Of a stretch of 64,000 bases of DNA, positions 38,243-42,760 are shown piece by piece. The stretch lies in NCBI GenBank assembly GCA_050331735.1, contig JBHJGN010000009.1, forward strand, positions 1 to 64,000. Reading direction: 5' to 3'. Each line of letters begins with the position of its first letter. The first letter of the stretch is position 1. Under the pieces are notes generated by a model, which saw only the letters and a program-made list of their open reading frames with translations, did no database searches and was not told the DNA's origin. The translations under genes were made by a program, and so were the position numbers. The stretch is from Cyanophyceae cyanobacterium. GTDB lineage: Bacteria; Cyanobacteriota; Cyanobacteriia; Cyanobacteriales; JBHJGN01.

Positions 38243-38317
38243 GAGAACATAGTCCAGATTCTAAGTTTAGGTGTGTCTCTGTCATTGACACTCCCTAAAA
38301 GACTAGCAAGGAGAAAT

Positions 38318-38515
38318 ATGTCTACCAAGAGTTGTCCCTGCTGCCAGGGAACTTTACTTCGTCATATTCGGTGCAACAAGATTTACTGGTACTGCTCAAG
38401 CTGTCGCCAGAACATGCCCGATTGGCCTTCACTCACCCGTGAGGCATCTTCTCACAGACGAGAACAACGGGGCTTAGAGCTAATGCCAGAAGTGGTAGAA
38501 GCTTGGGCAAATTAA
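38318..38515 (+). CDS. Small zinc-ribbon-like cyanobacterial protein
   Basis: AAGGAG RBS; CPCC...LLRHIR....YWYC..CRQ.MP. Confidence 0.75.
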   Translation: MSTKSCPCCQGTLLRHIRCNKIYWYCSSCRQNMPDWPSLTREASSHRREQRGLELMPEVVEAWAN

Positions 38516-39483: not shown

Positions 39484-39882
39484 CTATGTTTGTGATGGGT
39501 GAGGACTCGGCTGATAATCAGAAGCCAGCCGTTTTGGGAAATGGCTCGCTGCACTCGTCGTTAGCTGAGTGACGCTAGCAAGACTAACGGCGGGGCGGTA
39601 GTAAGAAACTCCGCGCCACTTGAGCTCAATTCTTGATTGCGGGTGGTAAGACTTGGGGACGAGAGCGCCCCTCGGCTGATATTCTTTATGCCAGCAGCGC
39701 TCTAGCTTTTCCGCGTACGCTTGTTTCCAATTCCAGCAGCGTTCGAGATAAGCAATTTTGTAGGAGCGCCAGAGCTGGCAAGGATTGTAAATTGGTTTAG
39801 TTTTGGAGTAAGCAATCCGCCATAGATGAGGCTGGAGTGGAACGAGGAATTTTACTTTTCCTGGAGGAGGAAGTAATTTCAT
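39484..39882 (-). CDS. Hypothetical basic protein with a DUF4278-like LKWRGVSY motif
   Basis: GAGG RBS; repeated AY.E(K)LERCW segment; LKWRGVSY. Confidence 0.55.
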   Translation of the reverse strand: MKLLPPPGKVKFLVPLQPHLWRIAYSKTKPIYNPCQLWRSYKIAYLERCWNWKQAYAEKLERCWHKEYQPRGALVPKSYHPQSRIELKWRGVSYYRPAVSLASVTQLTTSAASHFPKRLASDYQPSPHPSQT

Positions 39883-40693: not shown

Positions 40694-41377
40694 TCAGGCA
40701 GATTGGAGATGAGAAATAAACCAGTCTCTTGCCAGTTGTGCGGCTCTCTGGGCTACGCCTAGTTCTGTGAATGAATGCGTTGCCTCCCGGACAATTTCGA
40801 GGTGCTTTTCAGTTTGTAGCAAGGCGATCGCATCTTGATTCATGCCGACTCCCAGAAAATCTTGCTCGCCAACAATGAGCAAGGTGGGAGCTTGAACGTT
40901 TGCCAACACCGGACCCACTAGATCTAAATACCCACTGCAAGAAACAAGCGCGGCTACCGCATCTGGACGTTTTGCCGCTGCTGCTAGGGCAGCACAGGCT
41001 CCAGCGCTAGAGGCAAAGTAGCCTACCTTGATGGGGGCACTCCAAAACTGCTTTAACCAGTCTGTTGCCACCAGCAGCCGCTCAGAGAGTAAAGCAGTGC
41101 TGTGGCGCAGACAGTACCGGGTACGCCGGTCGGTGTCTTCTTCTTCCGGGGTCAGAAAATTGACTAACAGACTTGCCAACCCCGCCTGTTGCAAAACTTG
41201 AGCAATGTAGTGATAAAGAGGGCTGTCGTGGCAGCAGCCGCTAGCGGGGACGAACACAACGGCTCCCTTCGCGTTCGTGGGAATCTGAAGCGTTCCACGA
41301 AGGAAAAGCGAACCGCTGGGAATTGACACGAGATTTCGATGATATTGGATAACTGTCTTCATCTGTCTGTGCTCCAT
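40694..41377 (-). CDS. Dienelactone-hydrolase-like alpha/beta hydrolase
   Basis: LTPEEE, GYF.SS.GA, VQAPTLLIVG and ATH.F.E...A.DWF motifs. Confidence 0.75.
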   Translation of the reverse strand: MEHRQMKTVIQYHRNLVSIPSGSLFLRGTLQIPTNAKGAVVFVPASGCCHDSPLYHYIAQVLQQAGLASLLVNFLTPEEEDTDRRTRYCLRHSTALLSERLLVATDWLKQFWSAPIKVGYFASSAGACAALAAAAKRPDAVAALVSCSGYLDLVGPVLANVQAPTLLIVGEQDFLGVGMNQDAIALLQTEKHLEIVREATHSFTELGVAQRAAQLARDWFISHLQSA

Positions 41378-41441
41378 TCAGGTGCGAAAATGCCCGCCCC
41401 CGGAGAGAGCGGGTTGTCAAATAAGAATCAAATTAAATAGA

Positions 41442-41816
41442 TTAACTCATGGCTGCGGGCGAGCGGTCGTAGGTCGCTGCAAAACCAGAGGGGAACTCGC
41501 CTTGAATGCGGTTGCAGTAGCAGGATACATCTGCCTGTAAACCAACCTCGCTAGCTAATCGACTCAGCATCGTTAGCTCGCGGCGCTTGATAGCACGATG
41601 GTGCTTCATCATCAGACGGCGCGATCGCTCTTGGATTGAGGAAACGGCTGGAGGACGACTAGCCCTGCTCGTTTCCCCCGCATCTAGCTGAGGGGCGGCT
41701 TGACCTGTGCCAGAAAAAGCGAGGTCTACACCTCGATGCTTCCCCGTAGCTTTGATATCGCCTTGAGCAAGTTTCGGCGAATTGTCTTTATAACTAACGC
41801 TGCGATATTTGATCAT
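41442..41816 (-). CDS. gifB: IF17-like glutamine synthetase inactivating factor
   Basis: N-terminal YR.V.Y/HRGV (DUF4278-type) repeats plus IF7-like C-terminus R.LMM.HH..IK.R...MLSRLA.EVG...RIQG...TYDRS.AAMS; preceded by a glnA-type riboswitch. Confidence 0.75.
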   Translation of the reverse strand: MIKYRSVSYKDNSPKLAQGDIKATGKHRGVDLAFSGTGQAAPQLDAGETSRASRPPAVSSIQERSRRLMMKHHRAIKRRELTMLSRLASEVGLQADVSCYCNRIQGEFPSGFAATYDRSPAAMS

Positions 41817-41850
41817 ATTCCTCGCCTCCTTGATGTTTGTCATTAAGTAA

Positions 41851-41923
41851 GGCGCGTTCTTTTGGGAGGAGGTCTCCCTACTTCCGTTTCCTGGCAATAT
41901 TTGACTGGCAAAGAAATGAACGG
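41851..41923 (-). ncRNA. Glutamine (glnA-motif) riboswitch, variant
   Basis: CGUUC-AUUUC...GGAAAC-GGAAGUA-GGGAG(ACCUC)CUCCC-AAAA-GAACG-CGCC. P1/P2/P3 and GGAAGUA match; the usual GAAG reads AAAA. Confidence 0.8.
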
Positions 41924-41943
41924 TTTTTTCTCTCTCTACTTTT

Positions 41944-41976
41944 AGAGTAGACAAACAAGTTGAGGAACTTGTGAGG
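41944..41976 (-). promoter_or_regulatory. Direct-repeat box J plus -10 (riboswitch-gifB)
   Basis: CCTCACAAGTTCCTCA-N11-TACTCT; the riboswitch begins about 20 nt downstream of the -10. Confidence 0.88.
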
Positions 41977-42002
41977 AGGTCACTGCTGTTGAGAGGAATT
42001 TC

Positions 42003-42380
42003 CTATAGGGTCCAGGCGAGAATTTCCGCCATCTGCTTGGCAAGGGTCAGCGAATCAAACGGTTTAGTAATCACCCCCGTAGCGCCAGCTTCAAGAAAGA
42101 ATTGTCGGTCTGCGGTTTGGGCTTTGGCGGTTAAAAAAATCACTGGAATTTGCCGTACCTTTGAGTTATCCCGGAGCTTTTGGAGAGTTGCTACACCGTC
42201 AAGGTCGGGCATCATCACGTCTAGGAGAATAGCATCGGGCTGCTCGGCTTCAGCAACAGCAATGCCTTCTTGCCCCGAATTAGCGCTTAGCACTTCCCAG
42301 CCCGCCTGCATGGTTAAACCAAGTCGCGCAACGGCCTGAATGTCCTCTTCGTCGTCAATCAACAGGATACGTTTCGTCAT
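42003..42380 (-). CDS. Single-domain response regulator (receiver only)
   Basis: LLIDDE, LLDVMMP.LDG, FLTA and KPF motifs; no output domain. Confidence 0.92.
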   Translation of the reverse strand: MTKRILLIDDEEDIQAVARLGLTMQAGWEVLSANSGQEGIAVAEAEQPDAILLDVMMPDLDGVATLQKLRDNSKVRQIPVIFLTAKAQTADRQFFLEAGATGVITKPFDSLTLAKQMAEILAWTL

Positions 42381-42760
42381 GCCAATATCTTTAGAGGTTC
42401 TAACAGAACACGATAGGTGCTTTCTCCTTCATACCACGTCTATACGAGCCACTACATGAATTGACACCTAAAGAAATTCGTTCTTGACCTGACTTTGACG
42501 TAGAATGAGTGTAGTGAAGTCAGCCCGTTCTGGATGGAATTTAGGTAGCGAAGAGGCAAGAAGTAACGCTGGCTGAGAGGATGATTACCTGACAGTAAGA
42601 ATTTTAGGAAGTATCTCCGTGTAGAAGGATATTTCCTGACTGCTCCGGCCACAAAATTCAGCAAACAGTCCTGTTACTGCCGAGCCGCTTGAACCGAGTG
42701 AACGATTAGCGTCTACTGATTTGACTGACCTAAACTGCTGAATTCTCGGGAGAGTAAACC

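What the first reader, a model, noticed from the sequence alone, without database searches (positions are those of the whole stretch)
41442..41976. gifB-like gene with a mutated glutamine riboswitch, under the island promoter rather than an obvious NtcA site
Seen: box J, then a glnA-motif RNA (41923-41851) with intact P1, P3 and GGAAGUA but AAAA in place of GAAG, then an IF17-like ORF starting at 41816. I see no GTA-N8-TAC site around the promoter. Established: Synechocystis gifB is NtcA-repressed and controlled by a glutamine riboswitch, and the GAAG segment belongs to the conserved core. Inference: a gifB copy rewired from nitrogen control to energy/oxygen control, shutting down ATP-consuming glutamine synthetase, with a riboswitch that has decayed or changed specificity. 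The riboswitch position also independently supports the predicted TSS.
Basis: partly seen in the sequence, partly recalled or inferred. Interest (0 to 1): 0.72.

Follow-up and report, generated by a model that had tools for sequence, protein, structure and literature searches.

The report
Glutamine-synthetase inhibitor gene rewired to night programme
A cyanobacterium's only IF17-type inhibitor of glutamine synthetase has lost the usual nitrogen-regulator site and sits behind a promoter shared with hydrogenase and fermentation genes, and its glutamine-sensing RNA leader carries a change seen in no other copy examined.

Summary
Rfam places a glutamine-I riboswitch at 41851-41924 (-) at 38.6 bits (cut-off 35). 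Its junction reads AAAA (41863-41860) where every other copy I examined reads GAAG or CAAG. The 124-aa ORF (41816-41442) passes NCBI's IF7A model and keeps the three arginines. It is the only IF17-type gene found in this genome, not an extra copy.

The rewiring reading is well supported. In 13 of 13 IF17 loci examined from other genomes, a perfect NtcA box lies 24-32 nt before the aptamer. Here there is none. Instead an exact copy of TCACAAGTTCCTCAA-N10-TAnnnT is present. That promoter class drives hox, hyp, usp, hsp20 and ldh in this window, and Usp, PFOR and PpsA genes in other families.

"Decayed or changed specificity" is not shown. All published glutamine-contact nucleotides, the G-C linchpin, the three helices and the anti-Shine-Dalgarno helix are present. 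The two changes both fall in the loop-E strand.

My best reading is an AND gate: the low-energy (night/anoxia) promoter together with a still glutamine-dependent, probably weakened, leader. This is a new variant of a known circuit, seen so far in one genome.

The parts
41960..41974 (-). Promoter core TCACAAGTTCCTCAA ('box J'), occupying about -38 to -24 relative to the predicted start
   Evidence: 0 mismatches. 24 sites with at most 1 mismatch in the genome against 0 for the reversed control. Consensus of 25 genome sites is CYTCACAAGTTCCTCAAa-N9-TAcnnT.
41944..41949 (-). -10 element TACTCT, 10 nt after the core. Predicted transcription start near 41937 (inferred, not measured).
   Evidence: Read from the sequence. 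The same 10-nt spacing to TAnnnT is present at 9 of the 11 window sites.
41851..41924 (-). Glutamine-I (glnA-type) riboswitch aptamer: P1 41922-41918 / 41859-41855, CGGAAGUA 41886-41879, P3 41878-41864
   Evidence: Rfam RF01739, 38.6 bits, cut-off 35. The consensus fold lies within 0.3 kcal/mol of the MFE.
41860..41863 (-). J3/1 (3' strand of the loop-E motif) reads AAAA instead of GAAG
   Evidence: Unique among the 85 pattern matches, the 102 distinct metagenome sequences and the 10 next-lowest Rfam hits. A strict metagenome scan for A at the 4th position gave 0.
41849..41854 (-). Anti-Shine-Dalgarno CGCCUU. It begins with the C that is equivalent to linchpin C60 and pairs with GAGGCG at 41828-41823.
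   Evidence: The helix is present in the RNAfold MFE of the 120-nt leader. The same helix forms in the MFE of 8 of the 9 other leaders folded; the L003 leader sequesters its SD in a different helix.
41442..41816 (-). gifB-like ORF, 124 aa (stop included). N-terminal DUF4278-like part with one YRG repeat missing; C-terminal IF7-homologous part with R66, R79 and R86.
41387..41413 (-). Terminator-like hairpin (41413-41393) followed by CAUUUU
   Evidence: strand folding: -15.3 kcal/mol, z -2.95, 0 of 200 shuffles fold as well. The consensus terminator scan did not list it, because the T run is short.

Best explanation
The locus is a one-gene unit of promoter, riboswitch leader, ORF and terminator. 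It encodes this genome's only IF17-type glutamine-synthetase (GS) inactivating factor.

Transcription no longer comes from the NtcA-repressed TTGACA/-10 promoter typical of gifB. It comes from a promoter of the TCACAAGTTCCTCAA-N10-TAnnnT class. That class has no -35 hexamer, so it probably needs an activator or a special sigma factor. In this organism it heads hydrogenase (hox/hyp), universal-stress, Hsp20 and lactate-dehydrogenase operons (PEP synthase lies further down the ldh operon), and a neighbouring N-ATPase/AtpTheta operon. The mRNA should therefore be made in the dark, anoxic, low-energy state instead of on nitrogen excess.

Translation is still gated by a glutamine-I riboswitch. Without glutamine, CGCCUU just after P1 pairs with the Shine-Dalgarno region. 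Glutamine binding should pull the first C into the long-range G-C pair and free the ribosome site, as proposed for Synechocystis gifB.

The two G-to-A changes lie in the 3' strand of the loop-E motif, not in the binding pocket. They most likely weaken or retune the fold and do not abolish it or change the ligand.

Net logic: GS, an ATP consumer, is switched off only when energy is low AND glutamine is plentiful.

Shown: all sequence features, their uniqueness, the regulon membership of the box, and the protein's family.
Inferred: the conditions that fire the promoter, glutamine binding by the variant, and GS inhibition by the protein.
For: Promoter swap:
- 13 of 13 IF17 loci examined (13 genomes, 10 genera, 7 families) have a GAAG riboswitch and a perfect GTA-N8-TAC box 24-32 nt before P1. 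Twelve of the 13 also have TTGACA upstream. None has the box core.
- The window locus has no NtcA site and an exact box.
- The box plus riboswitch in one pattern matched 1 of 401 same-order genomes, and that one is this genome.

Meaning of the box:
- In the window it precedes Hsp20, a hypA/hypB operon, a CBS-domain gene with hoxH behind it, a metallo-beta-lactamase-fold gene, hoxU, Usp-hoxE/F, a second Usp and the ldh operon.
- The exact 14-mer occurs in 38 of 151 same-order genomes.
- In four of those genomes, 17 first ORFs behind it include 3 Usp, 3 PFOR, 3 PpsA-type and 1 protoglobin.

Riboswitch intact apart from J3/1:
- Above Rfam's cut-off.
- The pair contacting glutamine (C1:G59), G22, C58 and the G23-C60 pair named in PMC6698751 and PMC6212724 are all present at the aligned positions.
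- P2 is kept through changes on both strands. The consensus fold is 0.3 kcal/mol from the MFE; the 10 others range from 0 to 3.5.
- The anti-SD/SD helix is present.

Protein:
- IF7A model at 87.3 bits, cut-off 70.
- R66, R79 and R86 are invariant in 9 of 9 and 10 of 10 aligned sequences. The review PMC6316151 says three conserved arginines are essential in IF7.
- Two closer homologues (76% and 70% identity in the alignment) share its derived C-terminal residues, which argues for a maintained subfamily.

Target and regulator are present: GSI glnA, NtcA and nifH.
Against: - There are no expression data. No RNA run was listed for this DNA.
- The factor that reads the box is unknown. No paper with the motif was found, so 'dark/anoxic' is inferred from the company the promoter keeps.
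- The 4th J3/1 position is G in every other copy examined. This includes 102 distinct metagenome sequences, and a whole-collection scan for A at that position gave 0. Selection therefore seems to reject A there, so the aptamer may well be crippled.
- The hit is the lowest of the 150 listed among 151 genomes. Its score is 38.6 bits against 50.2-60 for the 13 orthologous leaders.
- The protein is divergent. It lacks a 21-aa stretch with the second YRG repeat, its first YRG reads YRS, and positions conserved in other IF17s differ (W to C, K to E, R to A).
- Read-through from the response-regulator gene, which ends 28 nt upstream of the box, is not excluded.
- Only one genome shows the arrangement. 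The DNA around the two closest protein relatives could not be seen.
Confidence: 0.55

Rival explanations
1. The aptamer is dead. The two loop-E changes stop the ligand-bound fold from forming. The leader is then a fixed structure whose anti-SD helix keeps translation low whatever the glutamine level, so the promoter alone decides expression, or the gene is drifting towards loss.
For: The 4th J3/1 base is G in all other copies seen, and 0 hits for A came from a whole metagenome collection. The Rfam score is the lowest of the 150 listed hits. The protein carries a deletion and a degenerate first YRG motif. In Synechocystis, an aptamer mutation that broke base-pairing abolished IF17 accumulation (PMC6212724, sections 17 and 20).
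Against: The changes are confined to one 4-nt strand. P1, P2 (with changes on both strands), P3, the pocket nucleotides, the linchpin C and the anti-SD helix are all kept, which is not the pattern of free decay. The ORF is intact with the three arginines, and its subfamily is conserved in two other organisms. From my own knowledge of loop-E geometry (not tested here), both changes would turn sheared A-G pairs into near-isosteric A-A pairs.
Confidence: 0.3
2. The variant aptamer has acquired a different ligand or signal, such as another amino acid or a nucleotide tied to energy state.
For: The J3/1 sequence is unique and the transcriptional context is new.
Against: Every nucleotide reported to hydrogen-bond glutamine is unchanged. 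The changes sit in the loop-E turn, away from the pocket. The variant is a singleton, so there is no family of such variants.
Confidence: 0.04
3. Transcription is still nitrogen-controlled. The box match is incidental or is a repressor site, and NtcA or another nitrogen regulator acts through a non-canonical site or through read-through from the upstream response-regulator gene.
For: The genome has NtcA. The response-regulator gene ends 28 nt before the box on the same strand. Imperfect NtcA sites are known elsewhere, for example at glnN (PMC6316151 passage).
Against: There is no GT-N10-AC at all in 41800-42120. The 15-nt core is exact and correctly spaced from a TAnnnT, and it is one of only 11 exact copies in 5.57 Mb. 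The 13 orthologous promoters are strongly conserved (12 of 13 read TTGACA ... GTAAnAnnnnnTAC) and none of that remains here.
Confidence: 0.08

Closest known systems
gifB (sll1515, IF17) control region of Synechocystis sp. PCC 6803: NtcA-repressed promoter plus type 1 glutamine riboswitch (Klaehn et al. 2018, PMC6212724; review PMC6316151)
   Same: An IF17-type protein with an IF7-homologous C-terminus and three arginines. A glnA-type aptamer in the 5' UTR. The sequence right after P1 is able to pair with the ribosome-binding site, giving a translational ON switch.
   Different: There is no NtcA box; a promoter element shared with hox, usp and fermentation genes is there instead. J3/1 reads AAAA instead of GAAG. 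The N-terminal moiety is shorter, with one YRG repeat missing.
IF17 loci of other genomes of the same order (13 loci)
   Same: Same gene family and leader architecture. The anti-SD motif is of the CGCCUC/GAGGCG type.
   Different: All 13 have a perfect NtcA box (GTAA-N7-TAC) and a GAAG junction, and 12 of the 13 have TTGACA upstream. Their Rfam scores are 50.2-60 bits, against 38.6 here.
gifA (IF7/IF7A) of Anabaena sp. PCC 7120 and the gifA of this genome (G000:C1:56485-56679)
   Same: Homologous GS-binding segment: 46% identity over residues 59-124.
   Different: gifA has no DUF4278 N-terminus and no riboswitch. This genome's gifA keeps a perfect GTA-N8-TAC box, ending 77 nt before its ATG.
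Dark/ppGpp induction of gifA and gifB through lowered 2-oxoglutarate and NtcA in Synechococcus elongatus PCC 7942 (PMC10749895, passages)
   Same: The physiological outcome is the same: more GS inhibitor when cells are in the dark or short of energy.
   Different: In S. elongatus the route runs through NtcA. Here the gene appears to be wired directly into the low-energy regulon, without an NtcA site.
hox / nifJ / atpT regulation in model strains (CyAbrB1/2, SigE, RpaA, LexA; review PMC13421787, passages)
   Same: The same kinds of genes (hydrogenase, PFOR, AtpTheta) are co-induced under microoxic or dark conditions.
   Different: The passages I read describe no defined -35-region element like TCACAAGTTCCTCAA. 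The 9-mer is absent from the RpaA-motif match lists for Anabaena in the supplements of PMC10805033.

Membership tests
Glutamine-I riboswitch (glnA RNA, Rfam RF01739) | Covariance-model score at or above the curated gathering score | tested here: met
   38.6 bits against 35, full model 1-53. It is the lowest of the 150 hits listed from 151 genomes.
Glutamine-I riboswitch (glnA RNA, Rfam RF01739) | Three-way junction P1/P2/P3 | tested here: met
   P1 5 bp, P2 6 bp, P3 5 bp. The consensus-constrained fold is -15.0 kcal/mol against an MFE of -15.3.
Glutamine-I riboswitch (glnA RNA, Rfam RF01739) | Pocket nucleotides (C1:G59, G2:C58, G22) and the long-range G23-C60 pair | tested here: met
   All are present at the aligned positions. 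Their roles are taken from PMC6698751 and PMC6212724 section 20. The mapping is by alignment and is my inference.
Glutamine-I riboswitch (glnA RNA, Rfam RF01739) | Loop-E motif: AAGUA on one strand opposite GAAG on the other | tested here: not met
   The 5' strand is intact, but the 3' strand reads AAAA. G at the 4th position is invariant in all other copies examined.
Glutamine-I riboswitch (glnA RNA, Rfam RF01739) | Selective binding of L-glutamine and ligand-dependent translation | not testable with these tools
   Needs in-line probing or ITC and a reporter assay.
IF17 / GifB glutamine-synthetase inactivating factor | C-terminal segment homologous to IF7 | tested here: met
   NCBIfam NF052599 at 87.3 bits, cut-off 70, residues 60-124.
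IF17 / GifB glutamine-synthetase inactivating factor | Three conserved arginines needed for GS binding | tested here: met
   R66, R79 and R86 are invariant in alignments A1 and A4. Their requirement is stated in review PMC6316151.
IF17 / GifB glutamine-synthetase inactivating factor | N-terminal DUF4278 moiety | tested here: inconclusive
   Pfam gives 16.8 bits, below the 25.3 cut-off. The N-terminus aligns with MKLxYRG...GKYRG of orthologues, but the second YRG repeat is deleted.
IF17 / GifB glutamine-synthetase inactivating factor | NtcA-repressed promoter | tested here: not met
   No site here, against 13 of 13 orthologous loci with one.
IF17 / GifB glutamine-synthetase inactivating factor | Inactivates GS type I by direct binding | not testable with these tools
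   Needs a biochemical assay.
TCACAAGTTCCTCAA promoter class (unnamed; hox/usp/fermentation regulon) | 15-nt core, then 10 nt, then TAnnnT, upstream of a gene on the same strand | tested here: met
   0 mismatches, TACTCT after 10 nt, aptamer 19 nt further on.

The most novel reading that the evidence does not exclude
In this nitrogen-fixing, hydrogenase-bearing cyanobacterium, feedback inhibition of glutamine synthetase has been taken out of the NtcA/2-oxoglutarate circuit and placed in the night/anoxia programme. The riboswitch is left as the only nitrogen sensor, and the AAAA loop-E is an adaptive retuning of its glutamine threshold, not damage. That would make it the first natural affinity-tuned glutamine riboswitch. 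It would also give a direct transcriptional link between energy state and GS inactivation, read by a conserved but unassigned promoter element of cyanobacterial fermentation genes.
Probability: 0.3. Interest if true: 0.75.

Novelty: new variant of a known kind. Interest (0 to 1): 0.58.

Why it matters
[quoted passage not shown] It has been described as strictly nitrogen-driven, through NtcA plus a glutamine riboswitch.

A gifB that keeps the riboswitch but swaps the NtcA operator for a promoter shared with hydrogenase, PFOR/PpsA-type and stress genes would show that the same inhibitor can be recruited to save ATP, or to cap glutamine, during dark anoxic metabolism. This matters most in an organism that also has nitrogenase.

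The AAAA junction is a ready-made natural mutant for testing what the loop-E motif contributes to glutamine affinity and switching.

The promoter element itself occurs in 38 of 151 related genomes and I found it in no paper. It is a handle for finding the unknown regulator of cyanobacterial fermentation genes.

Tried and rejected
- Sequencing runs: no RNA holder was listed for 41300-42400, so TSS and expression could not be checked.
- Complex prediction of this genome's GSI (473 aa, 22-row alignment) with residues 58-124 of the ORF (10-row alignment): no verdict, scores 0.01 and 0.07 against a mark of 0.32. The partner's own fold was uncertain. This is not evidence either way.
- PDB by sequence: 0 matches at E up to 1.
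- Genome-contig scan for A at the 4th J3/1 position: the pattern was too loose. Six candidates, three of them cyanobacterial, gave 0 Rfam matches. The scan says little.
- My permissive regex over those loci produced only chance matches.
- Palindrome idea: CAAGTTCCTCAACTTG at 41957-41970 looked like a CRP/FNR-type site. The second half is not conserved among the other boxes, so the conserved unit is the asymmetric 15-mer.
- ECF-sigma idea: GGAACTT lies on the opposite strand, but every box is oriented so that the gene lies downstream on the AAGTTCC strand. Rejected.
This is weak evidence against.
- Motif in print: a full-text search for six sub-strings of the box found 98 papers, and the 15 listed were unrelated primers.
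- Papers not held: Ren et al. 2015, Ames and Breaker 2011 and Markson et al. 2013. The pair-by-pair loop-E geometry and any published J3/1 mutants are therefore recalled or inferred, not read.
- No DNA-binding regulator was seen among the window's ORFs. The neighbouring response regulator is receiver-only.
- The closest protein relatives, P0002 and P0003, have no genome among 401 same-order genomes searched; the best match there is 49%. Their leaders could not be inspected.
Full report
WHAT IS THERE

On the - strand, reading downstream, the locus contains these features:
- a 15-nt element TCACAAGTTCCTCAA (41974-41960);
- ten bases, then TACTCT (41949-41944);
- a purine-rich stretch, with the likely transcription start near 41937;
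- a 74-nt glutamine-I riboswitch aptamer (41924-41851);
- CGCCUU (41854-41849), which can pair with GAGGCG (41828-41823) in the Shine-Dalgarno region;
- an ATG at 41816 opening a 124-codon frame that ends at 41442;
- a GC-rich hairpin followed by CAUUUU (41413-41387).

The hairpin folds at -15.3 kcal/mol with z -2.95. The consensus terminator scan did not list it because its T run is short.

THE RIBOSWITCH IS REAL BUT ALTERED

Rfam's Glutamine model (RF01739) is the only family to reach its gathering score in the 64 kb window. It scores 38.6 bits against a cut-off of 35, over the full model.

The alignment shows P1, P2, P3 and CGGAAGUA intact, and AAAA where the consensus has GAAG. The same genome holds four more copies, at 61.8, 56.1, 49.2 and 48.4 bits, and all four read GAAG.

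I tested how unusual AAAA is in four ways.

1. The pattern ACGGAAGTAGG-N6-36-GAACGC leaves the four junction bases free. I ran it over 401 genomes of the phylum. It gave 85 matches in 46 genomes, and 0-1 per genome for the reversed control. By my reading of the listing, 81 are GAAG, 3 are CAAG and 1 is AAAA, the last being this window.

2. A strict pattern requiring A at the 4th junction base found nothing in the whole metagenome collection. These hold 102 distinct sequences, all GAAG.

3. An Rfam-model search of 151 same-order genomes found matches in 92. This window's hit is the lowest of the 150 rows listed; three further rows were not listed.

4. The ten next-lowest hits (39.6-46.6 bits) read GAAG in 8 cases and CAAG in 2. 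One of them has a different loop-E change, GGAAUUA.

So the first junction base tolerates C, while the fourth was G in every other copy I saw. An earlier looser scan of genome contigs was uninformative.

WHAT THE CHANGE IS LIKELY TO DO

Huang et al. 2019 (PMC6698751, passages) state how glutamine is held in the glutamine-I structure. It is hydrogen-bonded to the G59:C1 pair, to the 2'-OH of G22 and to N4 of C58 in the G22>G2:C58 triple. [quoted passage not shown]

Klaehn et al. 2018 (PMC6212724, section 20) stress the long-range G23-C60 pair. They propose that C60 and the following bases otherwise pair with the ribosome-binding site.

By alignment, all of these nucleotides are present here: C 41922, G 41921, GG 41885-41884, C 41856, G 41855 and C 41854. 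This mapping is my inference.

The RNA-Puzzles paper (PMC5393176, passage) gives the loop-E strands as 23-GAAGUAA-29 and 50-UGAAGC-55. The two changed bases therefore correspond to G51 and G54.

From my own knowledge of bulged-G/loop-E geometry, these are the two sheared A-G pairs that flank the motif, and A-A is a near-isosteric replacement. I did not read this in a paper or test it here. I could not read Ren et al. 2015 or Ames and Breaker 2011.

Thermodynamic folding supports an intact scaffold. The consensus P1/P2/P3 fold lies 0.3 kcal/mol above the MFE, against 0-3.5 for ten canonical aptamers. The anti-SD/SD helix forms in the MFE of the full leader, as it does in 8 of the 9 canonical leaders folded alongside it; the ninth (L003) sequesters its SD in a different helix.

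P2 differs from the usual UCUCU/AGAGA on both strands (UUUCU/GGAAA), so pairing is preserved. One caveat: in the whole-leader MFE, UUUCU pairs with the conserved GGAAG instead. This competing fold is not available to canonical sequences.

A changed ligand is therefore unlikely. A weaker or higher-threshold aptamer, or a dead one, are the two live options.

THE GENE

The C-terminal 65 residues pass NCBI's IF7A equivalog model at 87.3 bits, cut-off 70. The N-terminus resembles DUF4278 only weakly.

I aligned it with six IF17 proteins from other genomes, this genome's gifA and a 49-aa IF7-like ORF. R66, R79 and R86 are invariant. The review PMC6316151 (passages) reports that three conserved arginines are each essential for IF7 to bind GS, and that the IF17 N-terminal moiety confers stability.

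The protein is divergent, at 36-43% identity to the six. It lacks the segment carrying the second YRG repeat. At positions conserved in the others it has C for W, E for K and A for R.

A search of 5.8 billion proteins found only two closer relatives, P0002 and P0003, of 145 and 147 aa. They are 76% and 70% identical in the alignment and share those derived C-terminal residues, but they keep most of the deleted segment. That points to a maintained subfamily, with the window's member trimmed further. Their DNA context could not be seen, and no genome among 401 of the order holds them.

Searching the genome with this protein returns only this gene, the 65-aa gifA on C1 and a weak DUF4278 hit. This is therefore the only IF17-type gene found with this query, not a spare copy. 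GSI glnA, NtcA and nifH are all present.

THE PROMOTER SWAP

I examined the leaders of 13 IF17 loci from 13 other genomes, covering 10 genera and 7 families. Six came and seven.

Rows not examined:
- L301 and L304, which repeat L011 and L009;
- the hits in G576, G504 and G502, which were given no locus;
- partial hits such as those in G040 and G069.

All 13 have an Rfam glutamine riboswitch (50.2-60 bits) with GAAG. All 13 have a perfect GTA-N8-TAC box ending 24-32 nt before P1. Twelve of the 13 also have TTGACA upstream. None has the box core. This matches the NtcA operator over the core promoter described for Synechocystis gifB (PMC6316151).

The window locus has none of this. The nearest exact NtcA-type sites are 5 kb and 10 kb away. 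There is no GT-N10-AC in 41800-42120. In its place is an exact copy of the 15-nt box.

A combined pattern of box, 26-56 nt, CGTTCA, 10-40 nt and ACGGAAGTA matched only this genome among 401 of the order.

WHAT THE BOX IS

The repeat finder and a mismatch scan show 11 copies (at most 3 mismatches) between 23.2 and 47.9 kb of the window. Nine of the 11 are followed after 10 nt by TAnnnT, and all are oriented towards a gene.

By Pfam the genes behind the boxes are:
- Hsp20;
- a 165-aa ORF without a Pfam family, followed by hypA and hypB;
- a CBS-domain protein, with hoxH further downstream;
- a metallo-beta-lactamase-fold protein;
- hoxU, then hoxY;
- Usp-hoxE-hoxF;
- a second Usp;
- this gifB-like gene;
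- two small ORFs followed by lactate dehydrogenase and PEP synthase.

Genome-wide there are 24 sites with at most 1 mismatch, against 0 for the reversed control. With at most 2 mismatches and a correctly spaced TAnnnT there are 25 sites, whose consensus is CYTCACAAGTTCCTCAAa-N9-TAcnnT. The sites include two more that precede Hsp20-like ORFs (by sequence likeness only).

The exact 14-mer occurs in 38 of 151 genomes of the order, including 7 of 7 in one family and 5 of 6 in another. In four such genomes I fetched 19 sites. Seventeen had an ORF of at least 50 aa behind them: 3 Usp, 3 pyruvate:ferredoxin oxidoreductase, 3 PEP-synthase type, 1 protoglobin, 1 pentapeptide protein and 6 without a Pfam family.

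This is therefore a conserved cyanobacterial promoter class for fermentation, hydrogenase and stress genes. My counts agree with that.

I found no paper containing the motif. The review passages I read name CyAbrB1/2, SigE, RpaA and LexA for hox, nifJ and atpT, without such a site. The 9-mer is also absent from the RpaA-motif match lists for Anabaena. The factor that reads the box is unknown, and the window encodes no obvious DNA-binding regulator.

HOW IT MOST LIKELY WORKS

Transcription comes from the low-energy promoter, and translation is gated by glutamine. Together these form an AND gate that makes the GS inhibitor when ATP is scarce and glutamine is not.

In S. elongatus, darkness and ppGpp also raise gifA and gifB, but through 2-oxoglutarate and NtcA (PMC10749895, passages). 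Here that step seems to be bypassed.

This genome has nitrogenase. NtcA-independent transcription could therefore let glutamine alone cap GS activity while nitrogen is being fixed in the dark. That is speculation.

My confidence is about 0.85 that the promoter has been exchanged. It is about 0.75 that the protein is a GS inhibitor. It is about 0.5 that the aptamer still responds to glutamine, 0.3 that it is dead and 0.04 that it has a new ligand. For the whole model it is about 0.55.

LIMITS

- Only one genome shows the arrangement.
- There are no transcript data.
- The complex prediction gave no verdict.
- The structural papers that would settle the roles of G51 and G54 were not available.

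Noticed in passing
window 23286-47904, and G000 contigs C5, C15, C32, C39, C64: A conserved promoter class, CYTCACAAGTTCCTCAA-N10-TAnnnT. There are 24 sites with at most 1 mismatch in this genome, and the exact 14-mer occurs in 38 of 151 same-order genomes. It sits in front of hox/hyp, Usp, Hsp20, PFOR, PpsA-type and ldh genes. I found no paper with the motif, and its regulator is unknown.
   Followed up: partly
window 39484-39882 (-): A 132-aa ORF with no Pfam hit. It is 37% identical (E 4e-9) to the riboswitch-controlled DUF4278 protein on contig C19. It lies inside the island downstream of a Usp gene and has no riboswitch of its own.
   Followed up: partly
G000:C81:27111-27167 (locus L001): The genome's best-scoring glutamine riboswitch (61.8 bits) precedes a 49-aa ORF. 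The ORF looks like a truncated IF7: it has the three arginines but scores 33.6 bits on the IF7A model, below the cut-off, and lacks the C-terminal third.
   Followed up: partly
G000:C15:49772-49846 (locus L002) and L329: A glutamine riboswitch in front of a 74-aa small protein that looks membrane-spanning from its sequence. A CRP-family gene lies just upstream. A similar small protein sits behind a CAAG-variant riboswitch in another genome.
   Followed up: no
window 38273-38515 (+) and G000:C64 near 27077 (+): Two paralogous small Cys-rich ORFs (CPCCQ..LLRHIR) each sit directly behind a copy of the box.
   Followed up: no
locus L334 (G461:C101): A riboswitch above the Rfam cut-off (43.6 bits) in which the loop-E bulged G is U (GGAAUUA) and P1 has a compensated change. 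This is another natural loop-E variant.
   Followed up: no
window 41720-41735 (-): A terminator-like hairpin plus T run inside the gifB-like ORF, about 80 nt after the start. The count of such sites in the region is at the level expected by chance.
   Followed up: no
window 42003-42380 (-): A receiver-only (CheY-like) response regulator ends 28 nt before the box of the gifB-like gene, on the same strand. Read-through or a functional link was not examined.
   Followed up: no
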